IMG/VR virus record: IMGVR_UViG_3300015607_001184
Span: 4,082-68,081 of that record
From: a virus
Taxonomy: Duplodnaviria > Caudoviricetes
Reading direction: 5' to 3' (one strand)
Length of the DNA: 64,000 bases
Shown here: positions 23,039-31,786 of the stretch, in pieces
Numbering within the stretch: position 1 is the first letter of the stretch
How the letters are laid out: each line of letters opens with the position of its first letter
The notes under the pieces: generated by a model
Told to the model about the DNA's origin: nothing
Database searches by the model: none
Seen by the model: the letters and a program-made list of their open reading frames with translations, nothing else
Made by a program: the position numbers and the translations under genes

Positions 23039-25102
23039 ATGGCATTCGGATCCCTTCGCCTTCGGCCGGGCGTGCAAGTTGAGGCGACGCCTGCCTTGAA
23101 CGAGGCGGGCGTCTCGGCAAGCCAGCTGATCCGCTTCCGCGACGGCCTGATCGAGAAACTGGGCGGCTGGACCAAATATTATGGCTACCCGTCCAGCGGG
23201 AAGATCCGGCACCTGCATGCATGGCAGGATCTGACGAAGGTCGGGCGCCTCGCCATCGCGGCCGAGCAGTCTCTGGTGTCGGCATCGAGCACCACGACGG
23301 GCGTCACCATCACGCCGCAGCGAACCACCTCGTCGATTGCCGTGGCCCTGTCGACCGTCAACGGGTCCCCCACGGTCACGGTGACCGACAACGCCTCCAA
23401 CATGACGACCAATGACGTGGTCGTCTTCCAGACGCCTGTCTCCGTCGGCGGCCTGATCATCTTCGGCGCCTATGCCGTCGCATCGAGCATCAGCGCGAAC
23501 CAGTACACGATCACGGCCACGGATCTGGTGCAGGGGTCGCCGACCTATGGCCAACCAAAGAACGCCACGTCGACCGTCGTCTCCGGCGGCGCGGTGCCAT
23601 CCTTCGCCACCACCAACGGCTCCTTCGAAGTCACGGTGACGCTGAACAACCATGGCCTGACGACGCCGGGCCAGATCGTCGCCTTCCCAGTGTCGACCAC
23701 CGGCGGCGGCGTGACGATCTACGGCACCTATTCGGTGATCACCGTCCCGGGCGCCAACACGTTCACGATCTATGTCTCCAACTCGGCCTCGTCGACGACG
23801 ACCTTCTCGATGAACGCCGGAAACGCCTATCTGGACCGCTGGATCGCCGTCGGCCCGGGAGCGGCCGGTTCGGGCTACGGCATCGGCGGCTATGGGTCCG
23901 GCGGCTACGGAACCGGTTCCCCGACGCCGGGCCACACCGGCACGCCGATCACCGCGACCGACTGGGATCTGGATAACTGGGGATCGTATCTGCTGGCGCA
24001 ACCTGCGCAGGGCCCGTGCTTCTGGTGGGACCCCGTCGGCGGCTTCCAGACGATGCGCATCATCACGAACGGGCCGATGATCGGAACCGGCATGTTCGTC
24101 GCCATGCCGCAGCGGCAGATTGTCGTCTACGGCGCCGAGCTGGGCGGCTATCAGGACCCGCTTCTGGTGCGCTGGTGCGACGTGGACGACTTCTCAAATT
24201 GGATCGCGTCCACGACCAATCAGGCGGGCTCCTACCGCATCCCGCGCGGATCCGGCATCATCTCCGGCATCCAGACATCCCAGCAGGCCCTGCTGTGGAC
24301 GGACCTTGCCCTGTGGTCGATGCAGTACCTCGACGGCCTCCTTGTATGGGGCTTCAACGAGATCGGCGCCGGGTGCGGCATCATCTCCAAGAAGGCCCGG
24401 GCCGCGCTTGGAGGGACCGTCTACTGGATGGGGCGCTCGCAGTTCTTCCGTTACTCGGGGTCTGGCGTCGAGCCGGTGGATTGCTCGGTTTGGGACGTGA
24501 TTTTCCAAGACCTAGACACCGACAACGCCAGCAAGATCCGCATGGGCGCGAACTCGATGTTCAACGAGATCGTGGTCTATTACCCATCCCTCTCCGGCGG
24601 AACGGGCGAGAACGACAAATATGTGAAGCTGAAGGCGACGACCGGAGAGTGGGACTACGGCACCCTCGCGCGCACGGCATGGATCGACCAGAACGTCCTT
24701 GGCCAGCCCTTTGGCGCCGGGACGGACGGTTTCACCTACCAGCACGAGAGCGGGCGCAACTCCGACATCAACGCCATGACCAGTTGGTTCGAAACGGGCT
24801 GGCTCATGCTCAACGAGGGCGAGCAGTTCACCTTTGTCGACTGGCTGCTGCCCGACTTCAAATGGGGGCTCTACAACGGGTCGCAGGACGCCGACATGCT
24901 GATCACGGTCAGCTGGGTCGAGTACCCTCAGGATGCGCCAAAGTCAGCCGGTCCATTCACGGTGACGCAGCTGACGCAGGCCATCACCGACATCCAGTTC
25001 CGTGCCCGGATGGTCAAGTTCAGGATCGAGTCGCAGGACATCAATTCGTTCTGGCGCATTGGCAACGTGCGCTACCAGTACGCCCCAGATGGAACGTGGT
25101 GA
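23039..25102 (+). CDS. Tail hub / packaged-DNA stabilisation protein (P22 gp10-like)
   Basis: IRFRDG..EK.GGW, DNWGSYL, LLVRWCD, AGSYRI..GS.I, WTD.AL.SMQY, YWMG..QFF.Y.G..V..VDC.V.D. Confidence 0.8.
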   Translation: MAFGSLRLRPGVQVEATPALNEAGVSASQLIRFRDGLIEKLGGWTKYYGYPSSGKIRHLHAWQDLTKVGRLAIAAEQSLVSASSTTTGVTITPQRTTSSIAVALSTVNGSPTVTVTDNASNMTTNDVVVFQTPVSVGGLIIFGAYAVASSISANQYTITATDLVQGSPTYGQPKNATSTVVSGGAVPSFATTNGSFEVTVTLNNHGLTTPGQIVAFPVSTTGGGVTIYGTYSVITVPGANTFTIYVSNSASSTTTFSMNAGNAYLDRWIAVGPGAAGSGYGIGGYGSGGYGTGSPTPGHTGTPITATDWDLDNWGSYLLAQPAQGPCFWWDPVGGFQTMRIITNGPMIGTGMFVAMPQRQIVVYGAELGGYQDPLLVRWCDVDDFSNWIASTTNQAGSYRIPRGSGIISGIQTSQQALLWTDLALWSMQYLDGLLVWGFNEIGAGCGIISKKARAALGGTVYWMGRSQFFRYSGSGVEPVDCSVWDVIFQDLDTDNASKIRMGANSMFNEIVVYYPSLSGGTGENDKYVKLKATTGEWDYGTLARTAWIDQNVLGQPFGAGTDGFTYQHESGRNSDINAMTSWFETGWLMLNEGEQFTFVDWLLPDFKWGLYNGSQDADMLITVSWVEYPQDAPKSAGPFTVTQLTQAITDIQFRARMVKFRIESQDINSFWRIGNVRYQYAPDGTW

Positions 25103-25153: not shown

Positions 25154-25363
25154 ATGCTTAATGACCTCGTGACCGCTTTGAAAAATGCAGTAACGGCCAT
25201 ATCGTTAATCAATCAGACGCTGCGCAGCGTCTTCCCCTACGCCACGGGGACATCATCGACCGCAACAGCCGGTGCCGCATCGCTTCCGGCAAATCCGGTC
25301 GGCTTCATCACGATCACCCTTCCCGACGGCACGTCGGCGAAGGTGCCGTACTACAACACTTGA
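25154..25363 (+). CDS. Small tail protein
   Basis: C-terminal LPANPVGFITI..G...KVPYY motif seen in phage tail proteins; RBS AAGGA. Confidence 0.55.
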   Translation: MLNDLVTALKNAVTAISLINQTLRSVFPYATGTSSTATAGAASLPANPVGFITITLPDGTSAKVPYYNT

Positions 25364-25370
25364 GGGCGGC

Positions 25371-27971
25371 ATGGCTGACGATTTCACAGAAGACCTCGCC
25401 TCGACCGCCGATCTGGCAGACGCCACCACGTCTGACGAGCAGCATCGCATGGAGATCGAGCGAGCCAAGCGCCGCACGATCAAGACCGTCTCGCTGACCG
25501 ACAACGAGAAGGCGCTGCTAGACCGCGTGGCCGACAAGAACCAGCGCAAGAAGATCGCGGAATCGATTAAGAGGACCAAGGGCCGTTTCCCGGTGTCGGA
25601 GGGCTGGGCCGCACCGGAAGCGAGCAAGCTGGTCACCAACAAGGCGGGTGAGCTGAAGACCGACAAGAGCGGGACGCCAAAGATCGGCTACAAGGGCATC
25701 GGCTTCAACTACGACCGCGACGACGCCGGAAAGAAGCTGCAGCGCTACACGCCGGAGTACGACCGCGCCGTCAAGGCGGTAACCAACCGGGCGCTGAACG
25801 AGATCCGTAAGACAATCGCGCGCGCCGAGGCCGGTGACCTGAATGCCCAGAAGACGCTGCGGCAGGTCGGCTGGTATCGCGAGGCGATGAAACGCGAGAT
25901 CGACCGGCGCGGCGGTGCCCACATGGCCTTCGCCGACCTGCTCGGGGCGACATCCCCAAACACCGTCGTCTCGGAGAACTATAAGCTGGCCGACCTTGCC
26001 CAGCAGGGCCACGCACGGGGCGACTTCGACGCACAGAACGAGTTCATGGCCCGGTACAACGGCAACATGAACGACTACCCTGAAGATCAGCTGATCAGAA
26101 AGAAGAGCGGGGCCCAATTCGGCATGAACAGCCGAACCGCCTCCATGGCGATGACTGACCGCTGGTCGCAGGAGGAGCCCGGGCAGGCACCCAAGGCGCG
26201 CAATTTCTCCGGCAACCTGTCGGGCCGCTCGGACAAGGCCACCATCGATGTGTGGGCGGCGCGCTTCCTCAACCGCATGGCCCAAAAGGCCCGCGTCCCG
26301 GTGCCGTCGCAGATGGGCGTCGAAGGCGACATGCGCCCTGACAGACCCGACCGCAAGATGGTCGGCCCGGTCCGGCTGCGCGCCTCCGGTGAGTTCGGCT
26401 TCGGGCAGGACGTGTTCGACATGCTGGCCAAGCGCCTGAAGACGACAGGCGAGCTGGCGCCATACCTGAAAGAGCTTGGCTACAAGCACGCCACGCCAGC
26501 CGACCTGCAGGCGCTGACGTGGTTCATCGAGAAAGAGCACTGGGCCAAGAACGACTGGACCTCAGCGGCAGGCGAGGGTGGCTCATTCGAAGATGAGCAG
26601 GCGCGCCAGCCCTTGCACCGCTATCAGGCAGGGTTCTCGATCCAGCAGGACGCGCCGCCGAGCGACGAAATGATGCACGAGGCCGCCCAGCACATCCACA
26701 ATGGGTTGGCGAGCGACGACAAGGTGCGCGTCTTCCGCGTCAATCCGACCTATGGCCGGTACGGCGGCGAGAACGAGCGCAGTTTCGACTCCGAGGTCAC
26801 CGCGCACCCGGACTGGGATCCGAGCGACTGGATGATCCGTCATCTGGAGCTGGCCAAGCAGCACAACCAGAAGGACGTGTTTTTCTCACGCCGCCTCGAC
26901 CCGGAGGAGGCCGACGAGCACCCCAACGCGCGCCCGGGCGTCGAGATCTATTTCAAGAACCGCAAGGCCATGGAGGCGGCCCAGCCGGTCCTCGACAGGT
27001 TCACGAACAAGGGCATTGACGGCTTCACCTACATCACCGACCTGCGTCACTCCCACCGCACCGCCAAGGGCGCCGACAGCAAGGACTACGTCGGCGTCAG
27101 GCTGCAGTGGGTGCCGGAGATCTCGCAGCGCTGGGACGACGAATTGCGCGACCGCTGGGAGCAGGATCCAGAGGCCCTGAAGGCCGACAAGATGGACGCT
27201 CTGGAGCGCATGCAGGACGTGATTCACCATCTTGATAAGCATAAGCACGGCATTGTTGACGCACGCATCCATAATTATGATACAGTGGTATCTGGGAAAG
27301 AGGACTACGATGACCACATCCGTGAACTCAGAGAAGCCCAGCGCACATCTGGAAATGCTGCGGGAGCAGCTCGCACGGTCGCTCCGCAAGTACGGGGAGG
27401 ACTCTCTCTCCACGAGAACATTGCGCGCCGAAATCGCGCGCTTCGAACGGCGGAGGAAGGAGGGTCGTCAGGACCACCACCAGCACTGGACGGCGGGCCG
27501 GACCTGAAATTCAAGAAGGGCGGCAAGGTCCCGCCCTACGAGCCGGGGTCGCCGATCCACCATCCGGTGGCCGACGATCCTATCATCATTGGCGCCATCG
27601 AGAGCGACGTGCCCGGCAGGACCGACAAGCACGAGTGCTCGGTCCCCGCCGGTTCCTACGTCATCCCCGCTGACGTGGTGAGCGCGCTCGGCCAAGGCAA
27701 CACCTTGGCTGGGCAGCGGGTGCTTGACCAGCGCTTCCGGCAGGGCCAGCACGGCCTCCCCGACATTCATGCCCACATGGCCAGAGGCGGCCCCGCCACG
27801 ACGGTCCCCGTCGTTCTGGCGGGTGGCGAGTATGTCGTCGCCCCGGCAGCCGTGGCGCGCGCTGGTATGGGCAACCTTGACCGGGGGCACCGGGCGCTCG
27901 ACAAGTTCGTGCGAGCAACCCGCGCCAAGACCGTGAAGACGCTGCGCAAACTGCCTCCGCCGAAGAAGTGA
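25371..27971 (+). CDS. Polyvalent internal/ejection protein: helical DNA-acting domain, SAM-lyase-like domain, tandem GEYV domains
   Basis: ATG 25371 after GAGGG; motifs GWY, LLGATSP, KARNFSGNL.G..ATIDVWAAR; GRY..ENERSF..LAKQHNQKDVFF; GRTD...GSYVIPADVV..LG and GGEYVV. Confidence 0.7.
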   Translation: MADDFTEDLASTADLADATTSDEQHRMEIERAKRRTIKTVSLTDNEKALLDRVADKNQRKKIAESIKRTKGRFPVSEGWAAPEASKLVTNKAGELKTDKSGTPKIGYKGIGFNYDRDDAGKKLQRYTPEYDRAVKAVTNRALNEIRKTIARAEAGDLNAQKTLRQVGWYREAMKREIDRRGGAHMAFADLLGATSPNTVVSENYKLADLAQQGHARGDFDAQNEFMARYNGNMNDYPEDQLIRKKSGAQFGMNSRTASMAMTDRWSQEEPGQAPKARNFSGNLSGRSDKATIDVWAARFLNRMAQKARVPVPSQMGVEGDMRPDRPDRKMVGPVRLRASGEFGFGQDVFDMLAKRLKTTGELAPYLKELGYKHATPADLQALTWFIEKEHWAKNDWTSAAGEGGSFEDEQARQPLHRYQAGFSIQQDAPPSDEMMHEAAQHIHNGLASDDKVRVFRVNPTYGRYGGENERSFDSEVTAHPDWDPSDWMIRHLELAKQHNQKDVFFSRRLDPEEADEHPNARPGVEIYFKNRKAMEAAQPVLDRFTNKGIDGFTYITDLRHSHRTAKGADSKDYVGVRLQWVPEISQRWDDELRDRWEQDPEALKADKMDALERMQDVIHHLDKHKHGIVDARIHNYDTVVSGKEDYDDHIRELREAQRTSGNAAGAARTVAPQVRGGLSLHENIARRNRALRTAEEGGSSGPPPALDGGPDLKFKKGGKVPPYEPGSPIHHPVADDPIIIGAIESDVPGRTDKHECSVPAGSYVIPADVVSALGQGNTLAGQRVLDQRFRQGQHGLPDIHAHMARGGPATTVPVVLAGGEYVVAPAAVARAGMGNLDRGHRALDKFVRATRAKTVKTLRKLPPPKK
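27310..27507 (+). CDS. Overprinted 65-aa protein in +1 frame inside the 25371-27971 gene
   Basis: GAGGA 6 nt before ATG; GC-ending codons in this frame; helical sequence LREQLARSLRKYGEDSLSTRTLRAEIARFE. Confidence 0.55.
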   Translation: MTTSVNSEKPSAHLEMLREQLARSLRKYGEDSLSTRTLRAEIARFERRRKEGRQDHHQHWTAGRT

Positions 27972-28029
27972 CGGGATAGCGAATCCGTGCGCGCTCGTGC
28001 ATGCATGTGATGCCGATCTGGGGAAGCGA

Positions 28030-28512
28030 ATGGTCGACTACGCCACAGAGGTCCGTCTCGCGGTCCAGTCCGACGAAGAGGACATCATGGTCCTGTGCCG
28101 GTTACTCCACAAGGAGAACGGCCTGTGGACGCTCAACGAGCAAAAGGTGCGCCATATGCTTCGGCGCGCGTGGCGTAAAGAATTTGCCATTGTCGGAATT
28201 GTCGGGAAACCCGGCGCCCTTGAGGGCATGATCTTGCTGGTGCTCGACCAGCCTTGGTACTCGGACGACTGGATGCTTGAGGAGATGCTCAACTACGTTC
28301 ACCCGGAGCATCGCAAGTCGGGCCACGCGAAGCGCCTTGTCGAGTTCGCGAAGAAGACATCGGAGGGGCTTGGTATCCCTCTGATGATCGGCATCATCTC
28401 AAATGAGCGCACGGAAGCGAAGGTAAAGCTGTACCAGCGGCAACTGGGAAGCCCGGCTGGAGCCTTCTTTGTCTACGGAGCCCGAACGGGCGACGTGGGG
28501 GCGGAGCACTGA
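28030..28512 (+). CDS. GNAT-fold acetyltransferase preceding ejection proteins
   Basis: PWYSDDWMLEE..YVHPEHRKSGHAKRLVEFAK acetyl-CoA motif A. Confidence 0.75.
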   Translation: MVDYATEVRLAVQSDEEDIMVLCRLLHKENGLWTLNEQKVRHMLRRAWRKEFAIVGIVGKPGALEGMILLVLDQPWYSDDWMLEEMLNYVHPEHRKSGHAKRLVEFAKKTSEGLGIPLMIGIISNERTEAKVKLYQRQLGSPAGAFFVYGARTGDVGAEH

Positions 28513-28513
28513 C

Positions 28514-31500
28514 ATGGGTTCGAAGAGCAGCAAGCCGACCACCACGGTAACTCAGGCCGGGATCCCCGACTACCTGAAGAAGAATTACGAGACGCTGACC
28601 AAGGCGGCGACCAAACTGGCGACGCAGCCATTCAACCCGTACAAGGGCGAGATGGTCGCGGGCCTGACGGCGGCTCAGGAGCAGGCCATCGCCCGCATGG
28701 GCGAAATTCAGGGCATTGGCGACCCGTATTTTCAGGCTGGCGCAGACGCGCTGAGCAAAGTCGGGCAGTTCACCGACAAGGCGCTGGAATACGGCGACAA
28801 GGCGCTAACCTACACCGACAAGGGGTCGCAGTACGGGGCGACCGCCGCAGAGATCGCGGGCGACCTCCGGAACACGCAGATCACGCCCATCGAGTGGAGC
28901 CAAGAACAGCTCGACAAGTACATGAATCCCTATCAGGCCGAGGTCATTCGGGCTACGATGGGGAACATCGCCGAGAACAACGCCCAGCAGATGCAGGGCC
29001 TCATCGGCAACGCCATTTCCAAGGGCGCATGGGGCGGCGACCGGGCAGGCATCGCTCAGGCCGCCATGGCGCGCCAGCAGGATTTGGCGGCAAACCAGAC
29101 GCTGGCGCAGCTCAACGCGCAGAACTACCAGCAGGCGATGGCGCAGTTCAACGTGCAGCAGCAGGTTGACTTGCAGCGGCAGCAGGCCAATGCGGCCCTG
29201 AAGGCGCAGGCTGGCGGCATGTACACGGGCCTTGGCGGCCTGCAGGCACAGCTGGGTGGCGTGACCGGCCAGCTGGGGAGCATGGCGGCGCAGCTCGGGC
29301 AGGTGCAGGCTGGCGTCGGATCTGCCTATGGCTCTCTCGGCACGGGCATCTCACAGGCGGCGATCAATCAGGCCATGGGCCTTCTGCAGGCGGGGACCGT
29401 CGAGCAGCAGACCAATCAGGCCTACGACAATGCCCAGTATCAGGAGTTCATGCGCAGGCAGCAGTTCCCGTACCAGCAGCTTGGCTTCCTGTCGAACATC
29501 TACTATGGCCTCCCGGCGACCAACACCGGCACTTCGTCGACTTACGCTCCGGCCCCGTCCATGGGGTCGCAGATCGGTGGCGCGCTGCTCACCGGCCTTG
29601 GCGCCCTGTCTGACCGGCGGGCGAAGAAAGACATCGAGGGCCTCGGCCAGCTGAACGGCCATAACCTGTACAAATTCAAGTACAAGGGCGATCCGGACGA
29701 GCGCGAGCAGGTCGGCTTCATGGCCGACGAGGTCGAGAAGACGCACCCCGAAGCCGTCTCGGTGCGCCCCGACGGCCTGAAGCAGGTCAATTACGCTCTC
29801 GCCATGGCGGCCAAGTCTGCCGACGAGGTGACCCGCCAGAAGCGCGCATTTGGCGGCGGCCTCGGCGTCATGGACGATCCGTCCTTCGACCCCACCGCCG
29901 GAGGGTTCTCCGGCGTCGAGATGCCTCTGGATCGGCTGGCCCGGGCGCGCGCTGCGACCTCGGCAATCGAGTCCGGCGGGCGCTATGACGCTCTCGGCCC
30001 CATGGTGAAGGGCGACCGCGCCTATGGCCGCTATCAGGTCATGGGCAAGAACATTCCCAGCTGGACGGAGATGTATGCCGGGCGCCGCATGACGCCGGAC
30101 GAGTTCCGCGCCGACAAGGGGGCTCAAGACGCGGTCTACAACGGTCGCATGGGGATGTATCTCGACAAGTACGGCCCGGAGGGCGCCGCCCGGGCGTGGT
30201 TCACAGGATCCCCGACGGGCAAGGGCTCGGATGGGTACACCAGCGCCGACGACTACGCCTCCCGGTTCATGAAGGGGTACAACGGCGGAAACGCCGACAT
30301 CCCGCGCGGGGAGGAGGCGTCTTACACGCCGCCCGCTTCGGCCAATGATGGGTCCGATTTCAAGGGCGGTCTGGGCTGGTTCGACAAGCCGGGGCTGCTG
30401 ACCGGGGACATGATGTCGGGCGACATCCGCATGGGCCTCATGCAGGCTGGCGCGGCCATGATGGCTTCCAAGAGCCCCTATGCCGGGCAGGCGATTGGCG
30501 AGGGGCTGCAGTCCGGCCTTGGCGCCTATGCGGAGCTGCAGGAGAAGCGCCGCCGGGATGCTCTGGCGCAGTCGCAGATTGCCCACAGCAAGGGCGCACT
30601 GGGTCTGGCCGAGCGGCGGCTCAGTGCGGAAGTTCCGGAGATCGAAGCAAGGACCGCCGAGCTGAAACAGCGCACTGCGGCAGAGCGTTGGGATATTCGC
30701 CCCGGGCTCACTGGTTGGCAGGTCATCGACAGGACCAACCCGCAGGCTGGCGCTGTGATGGTGCCGTTTGGCGGACGATTCCCCGATGGCACAAAAGCCC
30801 CTCCCGCACCGGCTGGAGCATCGCCTGCCGGTGGCGGAGGCGCGGGCGGGGCTCCTACATCCCCTCCGGCTTCGCCCGCGCCAACCGCGCCCGCCGCGAC
30901 CACCGACCCAACGTCGGAATCCGGCAACCATTACGATCCGATCACCGGCAATGTGCGCCCCGGCCTGCCGCAGGACGGCTTCGCGCCGCCGCCCGCGCGC
31001 AGCGAGCCCGGCATCACCGAGATGGACCACAACGGCAACCGCTATCTGTCGGACGAGCCCGACGATCTGGCTCAGCCGGAGCAGTACCCGACCAACCCGC
31101 AGGCCTTCAACCCGGAAGCGCAGCCGGGCCTGTTGGCGGCGGGGCGCGAACAGTTGATGGCCGGGCAGGAAGCGGCCGAGAAGGCGCAGCAGGCCAAGAT
31201 CACCGCGCAGAACATGCGCGAGGCCATGTCGATCTTGAACAGCAATCGCTTCACCAAGGGCGGCGCAAATTTCGAGGAGAGGCTTGCGCTGGTGAAGAAG
31301 ATCAACATGATCGCTAACCTGATGGGCAAGCAGGCGCCCTACCAGAACGAGGAGGCGGCAGCCAACTCGCTGCAGAAGGACACGTTCCGCATGGGCATGC
31401 AGGCGCTGCAGTCGCTGGCGGGCGGCCAGCGCGAGGCGGGCTTCATGCAGCAGGCTGGCATCGGCGCCGTACCCAATGGCGAGCAGAACGGGCTTGGCCA

Positions 31501-31786
31501 GCAGCGCCTTATGGCGTCGCTGGAGGTGCAGTCACAGCGCATGATCGACATGCAGCGCTTCCGCGAGCAATGGGCGCGGGGGACCGGCGGCGACCTGACC
31601 GGCGCCGACAGCTACTTCAACCAGAAGCGGCCACCTTCCTACTACGCCCGCAAGACGGTGCTCCTGTCGGTGCCGCAGCCCGCCATCGCCGAACTGATGG
31701 CCGACCCCACCCCGTCCAAGATGCGTATCTTTGACAGCCATTTCGGCGCTGGGACTGCCCGACTTATCGTGACAGGGGGGCATTGA
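28514..31786 (+). CDS. DNA ejection/pilot protein with internal S74-type autocleavage domain and lysozyme-like domain
   Basis: TTTVTQ..IPDYLK, YMNPYQ, GAWGG.R, Q.PYQQLGFLSN; LSDRRAKKDI..YKFKYK..GFMADEVEK..P.AV; AIESGGRY..AYGRYQVM. Confidence 0.78.
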   Translation: MGSKSSKPTTTVTQAGIPDYLKKNYETLTKAATKLATQPFNPYKGEMVAGLTAAQEQAIARMGEIQGIGDPYFQAGADALSKVGQFTDKALEYGDKALTYTDKGSQYGATAAEIAGDLRNTQITPIEWSQEQLDKYMNPYQAEVIRATMGNIAENNAQQMQGLIGNAISKGAWGGDRAGIAQAAMARQQDLAANQTLAQLNAQNYQQAMAQFNVQQQVDLQRQQANAALKAQAGGMYTGLGGLQAQLGGVTGQLGSMAAQLGQVQAGVGSAYGSLGTGISQAAINQAMGLLQAGTVEQQTNQAYDNAQYQEFMRRQQFPYQQLGFLSNIYYGLPATNTGTSSTYAPAPSMGSQIGGALLTGLGALSDRRAKKDIEGLGQLNGHNLYKFKYKGDPDEREQVGFMADEVEKTHPEAVSVRPDGLKQVNYALAMAAKSADEVTRQKRAFGGGLGVMDDPSFDPTAGGFSGVEMPLDRLARARAATSAIESGGRYDALGPMVKGDRAYGRYQVMGKNIPSWTEMYAGRRMTPDEFRADKGAQDAVYNGRMGMYLDKYGPEGAARAWFTGSPTGKGSDGYTSADDYASRFMKGYNGGNADIPRGEEASYTPPASANDGSDFKGGLGWFDKPGLLTGDMMSGDIRMGLMQAGAAMMASKSPYAGQAIGEGLQSGLGAYAELQEKRRRDALAQSQIAHSKGALGLAERRLSAEVPEIEARTAELKQRTAAERWDIRPGLTGWQVIDRTNPQAGAVMVPFGGRFPDGTKAPPAPAGASPAGGGGAGGAPTSPPASPAPTAPAATTDPTSESGNHYDPITGNVRPGLPQDGFAPPPARSEPGITEMDHNGNRYLSDEPDDLAQPEQYPTNPQAFNPEAQPGLLAAGREQLMAGQEAAEKAQQAKITAQNMREAMSILNSNRFTKGGANFEERLALVKKINMIANLMGKQAPYQNEEAAANSLQKDTFRMGMQALQSLAGGQREAGFMQQAGIGAVPNGEQNGLGQQRLMASLEVQSQRMIDMQRFREQWARGTGGDLTGADSYFNQKRPPSYYARKTVLLSVPQPAIAELMADPTPSKMRIFDSHFGAGTARLIVTGGH

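What the first reader, a model, noticed from the sequence alone, without database searches (positions are those of the whole stretch)
27310..27507. Hidden gene overprinted in +1 frame in the linker of the effector polyprotein
GAGGA-N6-ATG start and 65 codons with the genome's C/G-ending bias, while the host frame there is an A/T-ending G/R/A linker. The product is an amphipathic helical hairpin (LREQLARSLRKYGEDSLSTRTLRAEIARFE). Its TGA ends 2 nt before the FKKGG codons, so effector domains, overprinted ORF and GG motif form one cassette. It could be an immunity or chaperone protein for the upstream enzymatic domains, like toxin-immunity pairs in MuF systems.
Basis: partly seen in the sequence, partly recalled or inferred. 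Interest (0 to 1): 0.8.

Follow-up and report, generated by a model that had tools for sequence, protein, structure and literature searches.

The report
Conserved hidden gene inside phage ejection-protein gene
A 65-codon gene read one base out of step inside a phage virion-protein gene is real: the same small helical protein, with its own ribosome-binding site and ATG, sits at the same spot in well over a hundred related viral contigs, but what it does is still unknown.

Summary
Window 27310-27507 (+) is a 65-codon ORF in the +1 frame of a DUF7178 virion/ejection-protein gene (25371-27971). In this window alone the ORF is no longer than chance allows; the proof is comparative.

- A profile of the peptide ("X") finds it in 74 of 83 related viral contigs (GC 34-67%) and 2 MAG contigs, in the +1 frame in all but two viral contigs.
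- 64 of 65 distinct copies start with ATG. 78% have a Shine-Dalgarno core upstream, against 9.5% background.
- A reverse search seeded on X found a DUF7178 gene overlapping it in 59 of 59 evaluable loci.
- In 14 independent sequence pairs, host-frame third-position changes fall from 22.9% to 5.2% inside the overlap (chi-square p=2e-35). Crude pN/pS is 0.27 for X and 0.67 for the host frame.

X is predicted to be a helix-loop-helix hairpin with no Pfam, PDB or named homologue. Relatives show embedded, 3'-overlapping and nearly separate layouts, as spanin genes do.

Function is inferred only: probably a binding partner (chaperone, small subunit or inhibitor) in the ejection-protein module. The "immunity" and "GG cassette" ideas are not supported.

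The parts
25371..27971 (+). Host gene: DUF7178 virion/ejection protein, 866 aa from ATG 25371 (the open frame runs from 25272).
   Evidence: ORF. Pfam PF23802 matches at E=1.2e-7. The database form P0003 starts at MADDF. 230 relatives in IMG/VR pass tblastn.
25371..27332 (+). Conserved body of the host protein. Its N-terminal helical part is HhH-glycosylase-like and its C-terminal part has tandem ferredoxin-like units. The last helix (EDYDDHIRELR) carries the ribosome-binding site and ATG of X.
   Evidence: AlphaFold2 model with pLDDT 88.4 and pTM 0.87. Structure matches are only middling, Z 5-8.6.
27300..27304 (+). Shine-Dalgarno sequence GAGGA, 5 nt upstream of the X start codon.
   Evidence: Sequence. 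A GGAG/GAGG/AGGA core lies at -18..-4 in 51 of 65 distinct X loci, against 9.5% of positions in the host genes. The 'gactacgATG' context recurs in distant relatives.
27310..27507 (+). Gene X: a 65-aa protein in the +1 frame of the host gene, fully embedded in it.
   Evidence: Homologous +1-frame ORFs occur in 74 of 83 related loci and in L084 and L085. ATG is the start in 64 of 65. A profile built from distant members alone picks this ORF as the best of 1116 window ORFs, E=6.6e-4. Against L004, 3 synonymous and 1 non-synonymous change in X.
27310..27509 (+). Host-frame reading of the same bases: a G/R/A/S/P-rich linker (residues about 680-746 of the 899-codon frame) joining the body to the C-terminal domain.
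   Evidence: Translation. Host-frame GC3 is 0.52. Crude pN/pS is 0.67 in the host frame and 0.27 in the X frame within the overlap. The frame is kept open in 35 of 64 distinct loci.
27510..27971 (+). C-terminal domain of the host protein, starting at FKKGG immediately after the X stop codon. The same domain ends many phage proteins that have other front parts.
Evidence: Residues about 774-899 match over 100 proteins carrying lysozyme, NUDIX, ART and other domains. Among the X-bearing loci it is present only in the window and L004.

Best explanation
Window 27310-27507 is a genuine, independently translated small gene, called X here. It encodes a 65-aa basic helix-loop-helix protein and lies wholly inside the +1 frame of a DUF7178 virion/ejection-protein gene.

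Shown:
- X starts at a conserved ribosome-binding site and ATG written into the codons of the last helix of the host protein's body (the D-Y-D motif).
- X is under stronger purifying selection than the host frame over the shared bases.
- X is physically tied to the 3' end of DUF7178 genes across a wide range of uncultivated podophage-like viruses.
- Over the same bases the host frame is a low-complexity tail or linker.
- In this phage that linker reads right through X and, 2 nt after the X stop, continues into a structured C-terminal domain. Other lineages hang other modules there, or stop.

Inferred:
- The host-frame linker is the younger reading, made by extending the upstream gene across X.
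- X is made from the same late mRNA as the ejection proteins and works by binding one of them. The most likely partner is the DUF7178 protein whose gene it overlaps. The alternative is the giant internal virion protein that follows it in most relatives.
- X would then act as an assembly chaperone, a small subunit or an inhibitor.
For: Homology in the +1 frame:
- tblastn of X hits the +1 frame of host homologues that are only 30-50% identical, at the same place.
- The HMM finds X in 74 of 83 loci at E down to 1e-28 (four of them only at 1e-3 to 1e-2), in the +1 frame in all but two, and in two MAG contigs.
- In loci with 34-39% GC, X is the longest +1 open run of the whole host gene.
- A profile without any close relative of the window still ranks this ORF first of 1116.

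Start signals:
- 64 of 65 distinct loci have ATG.
- The SD core is present in 78%, against 9.5% background.
- In L001 a +1-frame stop lies 4 codons before the ATG, which fixes the start.

Selection:
- In 14 disjoint pairs, substitutions by host codon position are [72, 33, 46] inside the overlap and [618, 333, 3013] outside (chi-square p=2.3e-35).
- The host third-position rate is 5.2% inside and 22.9% outside.
- Nei-Gojobori-style pN/pS is 0.27 for X and 0.67 for the host frame.
- Window against its 99% twin L004: 4 of 5 changes in 27232-27507 are silent in the +1 frame. Elsewhere most changes fall on host third positions.

Linkage:
- An X-seeded search gave 59 of 59 evaluable loci with a DUF7178 ORF overlapping X.

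Fold and family:
- Helix-loop-helix with core pLDDT 84-90.
- 336 clusters at 90% identity and 385 at 50% identity, mostly 50-110 aa stand-alone 'hypothetical proteins'.

Context:
- In canonical loci the next gene matches phrog_6651, 'internal virion protein'.
- In the window the flanking genes match virion structural and DNA-ejection PHROGs.
Against:
- In this window alone the ORF length is within chance.
- The similarity of the window's X to the canonical subfamily is modest on its own (15.3 bits). It rests on intermediates and on position.
- The function is pure inference. There is no Pfam, PHROG-named, PDB-sequence or fold match.
- Binding could not be tested.
- Six loci of one divergent clade lack a detectable X.
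- The pN/pS values ignore the mutual constraint of the two frames, so they are only relative.
Confidence: 0.8

Rival explanations
1. X is a real gene whose specific role is that of an immunity protein or inhibitor. It would keep the enzyme-like DUF7178 body inactive in the producing cell or in the capsid until ejection.
For: - Linkage to the DUF7178 body is obligate.
- The body has a helical domain with a middling resemblance to HhH-GPD DNA glycosylases (Z 7.4 to 3n0u; Z 5-5.6 to MagIII, AGOG and EndoIII) and a unit resembling phage SAM lyase (Z 6.4).
- Overlap would guarantee that the two are inherited and expressed together.
Against: - The structural matches are below the level the tool itself calls reliable, and no catalytic residues were examined.
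- No toxin-family domain was found in the body.
- X resembles no known immunity or inhibitor protein.
- Binding was not tested.
Confidence: 0.15
2. X is not initiated on its own. It would be reached by programmed +1 ribosomal frameshifting from the host frame, giving a second, shorter form of the host protein that ends in the X peptide and lacks the C-terminal domain.
For: - X is in the +1 frame and overlaps the host 3' region in nearly every locus.
- An SD-like element lies upstream, as in prfB-type shifts.
- One database protein (P0181) runs from host-frame residues straight into X.
Against: - ATG is conserved in 64 of 65 distinct loci, at the spacing typical of initiation rather than of prfB-type stimulation.
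- The distinct loci L074 and L083 (plus L141, from L074's contig) have X in the +2 frame with only a 10-nt overlap.
- In L001 the +1 frame is closed 4 codons before the ATG, leaving almost no room to shift.
- No in-frame stop or rare codon lies at the junction in the window.
- Hundreds of database entries are stand-alone proteins of 50-60 aa.
Confidence: 0.06
3. The family is real in relatives, but the copy in this window is a decaying relic, tolerated only because the host frame needs the bases as a linker.
For: - The window's subfamily is the most divergent from the canonical X (15.3 bits).
- The host protein here has acquired an extra domain, so the host frame must stay open.
Against: - ORF, ATG and SD are all intact.
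- Against L004, 3 silent and 1 replacement change in X, while the same changes are 3 replacements and 1 silent in the host frame.
- In the same subfamily, the pair L001/L005 gives 14.5 silent and 6.5 replacement changes for X, and the reverse for the host frame.
Confidence: 0.04
4. There is no second gene. The +1 open frame and its apparent conservation would be by-products of constraints on the host protein or on an RNA/DNA element.
For: - High-GC genomes give long off-frame ORFs; a 114-codon run lies elsewhere in this same gene.
- Over these bases the host-frame peptide also aligns among the four closest homologues.
Against: - The host frame is the less conserved of the two.
- The substitution maximum sits on X third positions.
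- The ORF stays open in genomes of 34-39% GC, where +1-frame stops occur about every 13 codons.
- ATG and SD are conserved while the host peptide around them changes.
- X extends beyond the host stop codon in 27 of 64 distinct loci, so there it cannot be a by-product of host coding.
Confidence: 0.02

Closest known systems
Lambda Rz/Rz1 two-component spanin genes (Rz1 embedded in the +1 frame of Rz), with the 'embedded / overlapped / separated' architectures catalogued in PMC6139136
   Same: - A small gene lies wholly inside the +1 frame of a larger phage gene.
- Relatives show the same three layouts. Of 64 distinct X loci, 35 are embedded, 27 overlap only the host 3' end, and 2 are nearly separate with a 10-nt overlap.
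- The two spanin products act together, which is the model inferred here.
   Different: - X has no signal peptide, lipobox or N-terminal Cys.
- It lies in the virion/ejection-protein module, not in a lysis cassette.
- The host gene is not an inner-membrane spanin.
- There is no sequence or fold relation.
Classical overprinted genes of small phages (phiX174 B in A, E in D, and K; MS2 L) and viral overprinting in general (reviews PMC8227390, PMC3494269)
   Same: - Two proteins are read from the same bases in different frames.
- One reading is ordered and conserved; the other is compositionally biased and faster-evolving.
- Synonymous change in the host frame is suppressed.
   Different: - Here the genome is a dsDNA tailed-phage genome of about 57 kb (the contig behind L004 is 57,582 bases), with no obvious need to save space.
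- The biased reading belongs to the large gene, as a linker or tail, not to the small one.
- The codon-usage test for the older frame gives no answer, because the base pattern is fixed across GC contents.
Tail assembly chaperone G/GT-type programmed frameshifting in tailed phages (from general knowledge)
   Same: A conserved overlap of two frames at the 3' end of a structural-module gene.
   Different: - G/GT uses a -1 slip on a slippery heptamer and has no separate start.
- X has a conserved ATG and SD and is in the +1 frame.
- No slippery site is visible near either end of X in the window.
Toxin-immunity pairs next to MuF/polyvalent phage proteins
   Same: - The host is a virion-delivered multi-domain protein with a small adjacent partner gene.
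- One relative (L068) carries an ART-PolyVal domain after the X overlap.
   Different: - No MuF domain in the host.
- X goes with the constant DUF7178 body, not with the variable cargo.
- Immunity genes in those systems are separate downstream genes, not embedded ones.

Membership tests
Overlapping (embedded) protein-coding gene | The alternative-frame ORF is kept open across diverged relatives beyond chance. | tested here: met
   - Present in 74 of 83 related loci plus 2 MAG contigs.
- It is the longest +1 open run in the host gene in all loci of 34-39% GC.
- 59 of 59 evaluable loci in the X-seeded set.
Overlapping (embedded) protein-coding gene | A conserved start codon and ribosome-binding site of its own. 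| tested here: met
   ATG in 64 of 65 distinct loci. SD core in 78%, against 9.5% background. Sequences.
Overlapping (embedded) protein-coding gene | Purifying selection on the alternative frame and suppressed synonymous change in the host frame. | tested here: met
   - Host third-position change is 5.2% inside and 22.9% outside the overlap, chi-square p=2.3e-35.
- pN/pS is 0.27 for X and 0.67 for the host frame. These are crude estimates, not corrected for the overlap.
Overlapping (embedded) protein-coding gene | The product is actually made (ribosome footprints or peptides). | not testable with these tools
Rz1-type o-spanin | N-terminal lipoprotein signal with a lipobox Cys, and a location in the lysis cassette. 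| tested here: not met
   - The window's X has no Cys and no hydrophobic N-terminus; the alignment shows none at the N-terminus either.
- The neighbouring genes encode virion and ejection proteins.
Programmed ribosomal frameshift product | No independent start; a shift site (slippery heptamer, or a stop or rare codon with a closely spaced SD) at the frame junction. | tested here: not met
   - Conserved ATG and SD at initiation spacing.
- A +1-frame stop 4 codons before the ATG in L001.
- Variants in the +2 frame.
- No such site seen in the window; it was looked for by eye only.
MuF-associated toxin-immunity module | A MuF (Phage_Mu_F) domain in the large protein and a recognisable toxin domain paired with the small gene. 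| tested here: not met
   - Pfam scan of the host protein finds only PF23802/DUF7178.
- X is linked to the constant body, not to variable C-terminal modules.
DUF7178 (PF23802) protein family, for the host gene | A match to the Pfam model above the curated cut-off. | tested here: met
   32.3 bits against a cut-off of 27, E=1.2e-7, residues 197-338. The precomputed PF23802 label is on P0003-P0006.

The most novel reading that the evidence does not exclude
X is a dedicated partner of a virion-delivered, DNA-glycosylase-like enzyme, acting as a chaperone or inhibitor. Writing X into the enzyme's own 3' end enforces co-inheritance and fixed co-expression. The out-of-frame reading of X has in turn become a ready-made flexible linker, on which different lineages have repeatedly bolted new C-terminal modules: a docking domain here, an ADP-ribosyltransferase in L068, and unknown domains elsewhere. 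An embedded gene would then act as a hotspot for domain accretion in ejected phage proteins.
Probability: 0.15. Interest if true: 0.8.

Novelty: new member of a known kind. Interest (0 to 1): 0.6.

Why it matters
- **Annotation.** Gene finders forbid long same-strand overlaps. This family is therefore called only on short contigs, or where the overlap is small: 336 unnamed clusters. It is missed in full-length genomes such as this one.
- **A clean test case.** It is one of the clearest comparative cases of a fully embedded gene in a large dsDNA phage. It is old enough to be shared by viruses from 34% to 67% GC, and it shows all three overlap architectures known from spanins.
- **A new component.** It adds an unrecognised, apparently obligatory small protein to the ejection-protein module of a widespread group of uncultivated podophage-like viruses.
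- **Evolution of a linker.** The 'linker' of a modular injected protein may be the shadow of another gene, which explains why structured domains begin exactly where X ends.
- **A caution.** Third-position GC bias in an alternative frame can be a fixed consequence of dual coding rather than codon adaptation.

Tried and rejected
**Ideas tested and dropped**
- Codon usage as a clock for which frame is older. X-frame GC3 is 0.53-0.85 and host-frame GC3 0.27-0.53 in all loci, whatever the genome GC3, so the test is uninformative.

**Searches on X that found nothing useful**
- Pfam: only chance-level hits.
- PHROGs: phrog_7334, of unknown function, for 2 of 32 members.
- PDB sequences: best E=0.19.
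- Foldseek against PDB: best E=0.56, generic hairpins.
- ESM Atlas: scores no higher than 0.86, all unnamed clusters.

**GenBank phages (INPHARED)**
- No hit for a canonical X or a canonical host protein.
- Only the C-terminal domain of the window's protein hit one record.

**Loci that could not be obtained**
- DNA of the 66%-identical homologue P0004 was not found in viral contigs.
- P0350 gave no loci.

**Literature**
- 'DUF7178' appears in no paper.
- Podovirus internal-virion-protein papers, including PMC10386132, do not mention an embedded gene.

**Host body fold**
- Foldseek found nothing at E<=1e-3. VIA-align gave only middling Z of 5-8.6.

- The look-up of encoding contigs, complex prediction, the look-up of sequencing runs.
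- The genome search cannot draw relatives for a virus record.
- No complex prediction was obtained, so nothing can be said from these tools about binding.

**Divergent clade**
- L073, L075, L076, L079, L080 and L082 have no X by HMM. A conserved +1 ORF of about 100 codons sits at the same place, but no homology to X could be shown.
Full report
**1. What is at the coordinates**

The window's + strand carries a long ORF, 25272-27971.
- Its real start is ATG 25371 ('MADDF'), the start of the 866-aa database form P0003.
- Pfam recognises only PF23802/DUF7178, at residues 197-338.
- The flanking genes match PHROGs for a virion structural protein (23039-25102) and a DNA-ejection / tail-fibre-like protein (28469-31786).

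Inside this gene, in the +1 frame:
- ATG 27310 opens a 65-codon ORF that ends with TGA at 27505-27507.
- GAGGA lies at 27300-27304, 5 nt before the ATG.
- The stop ends 2 nt before the Phe codon of FKKGG.
- Over these bases GC3 is 0.79 in the +1 frame and 0.52 in the host frame. The host gene as a whole has 0.83.

The description is therefore accurate. On length alone the ORF is unremarkable: the same gene holds another +1-frame open run of 114 codons.

**2. The close relative**

L004 is an independent IMG/VR contig, 99% identical, with the same frame structure, so a sequencing error is excluded.
- 37 differences lie across 25272-27971.
- Four fall inside 27310-27507. Three are silent in the +1 frame but change the host protein; one does the reverse.
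- A fifth, at 27237, is also a +1-frame third position.
- Elsewhere in the gene most changes fall on host third positions.

**3. Distant relatives**

An alignment of the host protein with its closest database homologues was used to fetch 83 loci from IMG/VR and JGI metagenomes. Host-protein identity runs from 99% down to 28%.
- In L001 and L005 (48-49% identity, GC 0.52) the +1 frame at the same place is open. It starts with ATG and encodes a peptide plainly homologous to the window's.
- tblastn with the window peptide then found the same motif, L-x-x-Q-L ... G-E-x-S-P ... L-R-x-Q-I-A, in dozens of loci at the equivalent position.
- An HMM built from 17 seeds finds it in 74 of the 83 loci. Most score E of 1e-13 to 1e-28; four score only 1e-3 to 1e-2.
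- Three of the nine loci without it are cut off before the site. The other six belong to one divergent clade.
- Two MAG contigs, labelled Burkholderiaceae and Flavobacterium, carry it too.
- A profile built only from the canonical subfamily, with no close relative of the window, ranks the window ORF first among all 1116 six-frame ORFs of the window (E=6.6e-4).

I call the product X.

**4. Signals of an independent gene**
- 64 of 65 distinct copies begin with ATG at the aligned start. The odd one was my own mis-set coordinate for L077.
- 78% have a GGAG/GAGG/AGGA core 4-18 nt upstream, against 9.5% of positions in the host genes.
- The start context 'gactacgATG' recurs in the window and in distant loci, because the ATG is written across the host's conserved D-Y-D motif. 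Where the host peptide differs, the ATG and SD are still there.
- In L001 a +1-frame stop lies 4 codons before the ATG. This supports 27310 as the start, rather than ATG 27277 or TTG 27232.

**5. Selection**

Fourteen phylogenetically disjoint pairs of loci (76-99% identical) were compared.
- Substitutions by host codon position are [72, 33, 46] inside the overlap and [618, 333, 3013] outside (chi-square p=2.3e-35).
- The host third-position rate falls from 22.9% to 5.2%.
- The commonest changes inside the overlap lie on X third positions.

A simple Nei-Gojobori count over the 11 pairs of equal length gives pN/pS of 0.27 for the X frame and 0.67 for the host frame.
- These figures ignore the mutual constraint of the two frames and are only comparative.
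- They show that X is the more strongly conserved reading, and that the host frame is still not free.

In the loci of 34-39% GC, +1-frame stops occur about every 13 codons. There the X ORF, 61-82 codons from stop to stop, is the longest +1 open run of the whole host gene.

**6. Linkage tested from the other side**

A search seeded on a database X protein (P0125) returned 60 loci that carry X.
- 59 have a DUF7178 ORF overlapping X: 58 in the +1 frame and one in the +2 frame with a 10-nt overlap.
- In the remaining locus X lies at the very edge of the contig.

**7. Architectures**

| Layout among 64 distinct X loci | Loci |
|---|---|
| X overlaps only the host 3' end (29-182 nt) and runs past the host stop | 27 |
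| X embedded; host ends 60 nt or less after X (typically 38 nt, at the start of the next gene) | 15 |
| X embedded; host continues 61-200 nt | 8 |
| X embedded; host continues more than 200 nt into extra domains | 12 |
| X in the +2 frame with a 10-nt overlap | 2 |

- The window belongs to the class with extra domains.
- Its C-terminal domain (27510-27971) occurs, among the fetched X-bearing loci, only in the window and L004.
- L068 carries an ART-PolyVal domain in that position. Others carry domains of no known family.

X goes with the end of the DUF7178 body, and whatever follows varies. The neat abutment of the X stop and FKKGG is best explained by constraint: a structured host-frame domain can begin only where dual coding ends.

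**8. The GC3 argument re-examined**

X-frame GC3 in the overlap is 0.53-0.85 and host-frame GC3 is 0.27-0.53 in every locus, while the host genes' own GC3 ranges from 0.18 to 0.90.
- The pattern is a fixed property of the dual-coded sequence. X third positions are host first positions, in a G/A/R/P/E-rich tail.
- It is not codon adaptation. It matches the genome's bias here only because this genome is GC-rich.
- For the same reason, the usual codon-usage test for the older frame (PMC3494269, PMC8227390) gives no answer.
- That the host tail is the younger reading is my inference. It rests on the tail's low complexity, its higher pN/pS, and the existence of nearly separate arrangements.

**9. 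What X is**
- AlphaFold2 on a 32-sequence alignment (A3) gives helix 10-27, a loop at the conserved G-E-D-S, then helix 33-60. Mean pLDDT is 73, and 84-90 in the core.
- The C-terminus carries a conserved aromatic-aliphatic-T/A-G motif (WTAG here, LYLTG in most), followed by a basic tail.
- There is no Cys, no signal peptide and no membrane segment.
- Pfam, PHROGs, PDB sequences, Foldseek and the ESM Atlas give nothing usable.
- The family is large: 336 clusters at 90% identity and 385 at 50% identity. Nearly all are 50-110 aa, unnamed, and on short contigs.
- Some members are 103 aa with an extra C-terminal piece.
- GenBank phage records hold neither X nor the canonical host protein at tblastn level.

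**10. Context and likely role**
- In canonical loci the order is: a gene of about 600 aa, the DUF7178 gene of about 935 aa with X at its end, then a gene of over 900 aa matching phrog_6651, 'internal virion protein'.
- The DUF7178 body folds with high confidence (pLDDT 88). It has a helical domain with middling resemblance to HhH-GPD glycosylases, and tandem ferredoxin-like units (Z 5-8.6). That is below the level that proves kinship.
- X is therefore a constant small component of the ejection/internal-protein module.
- I infer that it acts by binding one of those proteins, most likely the one whose gene it overlaps, as a chaperone, small subunit or inhibitor.

**11. Rivals**
- Programmed +1 frameshifting is disfavoured. 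The ATG and SD are conserved, some loci carry X in the +2 frame, a +1-frame stop lies just before the ATG in L001, and free-standing database forms are abundant.
- A chance ORF or a by-product of host constraints is excluded for practical purposes. In 27 of 64 distinct loci X extends beyond the host stop, and the X frame is the better conserved.
- A decaying relic in this window is unlikely, given intact signals and the 3:1 ratio of silent to replacement changes against L004.

**12. Comparison with known systems**
- The nearest known thing in architecture is the lambda Rz/Rz1 pair and the embedded / overlapped / separated series of spanin genes (PMC6139136). X fails every defining feature of an o-spanin.
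- It is a new family and a new instance of a known phenomenon: an embedded overlapping gene in a phage.

**13. Verdict**
- Observation: confirmed.
- The 'hidden gene' reading: supported.
- The functional and 'cassette' readings: not supported or untested.
- Confidence that X is a real, separately translated gene is about 0.9.
- Confidence that it works as a binding partner within the ejection-protein module is about 0.4-0.5.
- Of that share, the specific inhibitor/immunity form carries about 0.15.

Noticed in passing
Against the 96%-identical contig L086 there are only 3 differences in 243 nt inside it, 2 of them on host first positions, versus 121 in 2874 nt outside. GC3 is 0.75 in the ORF frame and 0.38 in the host frame. 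This is the same kind of signal as for X, but from a single pair only.
   Followed up: partly
window 25371-27332 (host protein body): The AlphaFold2 model has pLDDT 88. Residues 136-406 resemble HhH-GPD DNA glycosylases (VIA Z 7.4 to 3n0u; Z 5-5.6 to MagIII, AGOG and EndoIII). Residues 413-640 form tandem ferredoxin-like units (Z 8.6 to RND-pump porter domains; Z 6.4 to phage SAM lyase 6zm9). All of these are in the range the tool calls inconclusive.
   Followed up: partly
L068:5101-5676: In this relative the host frame, after reading through X, continues into an ART-PolyVal ADP-ribosyltransferase domain (PF18760, E=6.9e-8). Other relatives continue into 130-930 aa of unknown domains. Different modules have therefore been appended after the same overlap.
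   Followed up: partly
L073, L075, L076, L079, L080, L082 (for example L075:3935-4240): This divergent clade of DUF7178 genes has no X detectable by HMM. All six still keep an open +1-frame ORF of about 100 codons at the equivalent place. Its host frame there contains a segment weakly reminiscent of X (YGTEARDPDALRQEF...W-E-G). Whether either of these is a diverged X is unresolved.
   Followed up: partly
database protein P0181 (77 aa): It begins with host-frame residues (VFYDTKVYFRDD) and runs directly into X (TMSTLQEQL...). Either there is a one-base difference in that contig, or a natural fusion of the body end to X.
   Followed up: no
database proteins P0125 and P0250 (103 aa); loci L135-L137, L142, L150, L152-L160: Many X homologues are 103 aa, with a conserved extra C-terminal piece of about 46 aa. 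That piece alone matches 14 other viral loci that have neither X nor a DUF7178 gene.
   Followed up: partly
window 27997-28512 (+): A GNAT-type acetyltransferase gene (PF13508 / PF00583) sits directly after the host gene and overlaps the start of the 1105-aa ejection-protein ORF (28469-31786). In canonical relatives a giant internal virion protein gene follows instead.
   Followed up: no
window 27774-27971 region and proteins P0007, P0008, P0077: Several proteins that share the window's C-terminal domain also share an unrelated conserved N-terminal motif (MPL-K-GSK-A-S-NI ... PQKQA-AIAL..ARKYA). The window's protein lacks this motif.
   Followed up: no
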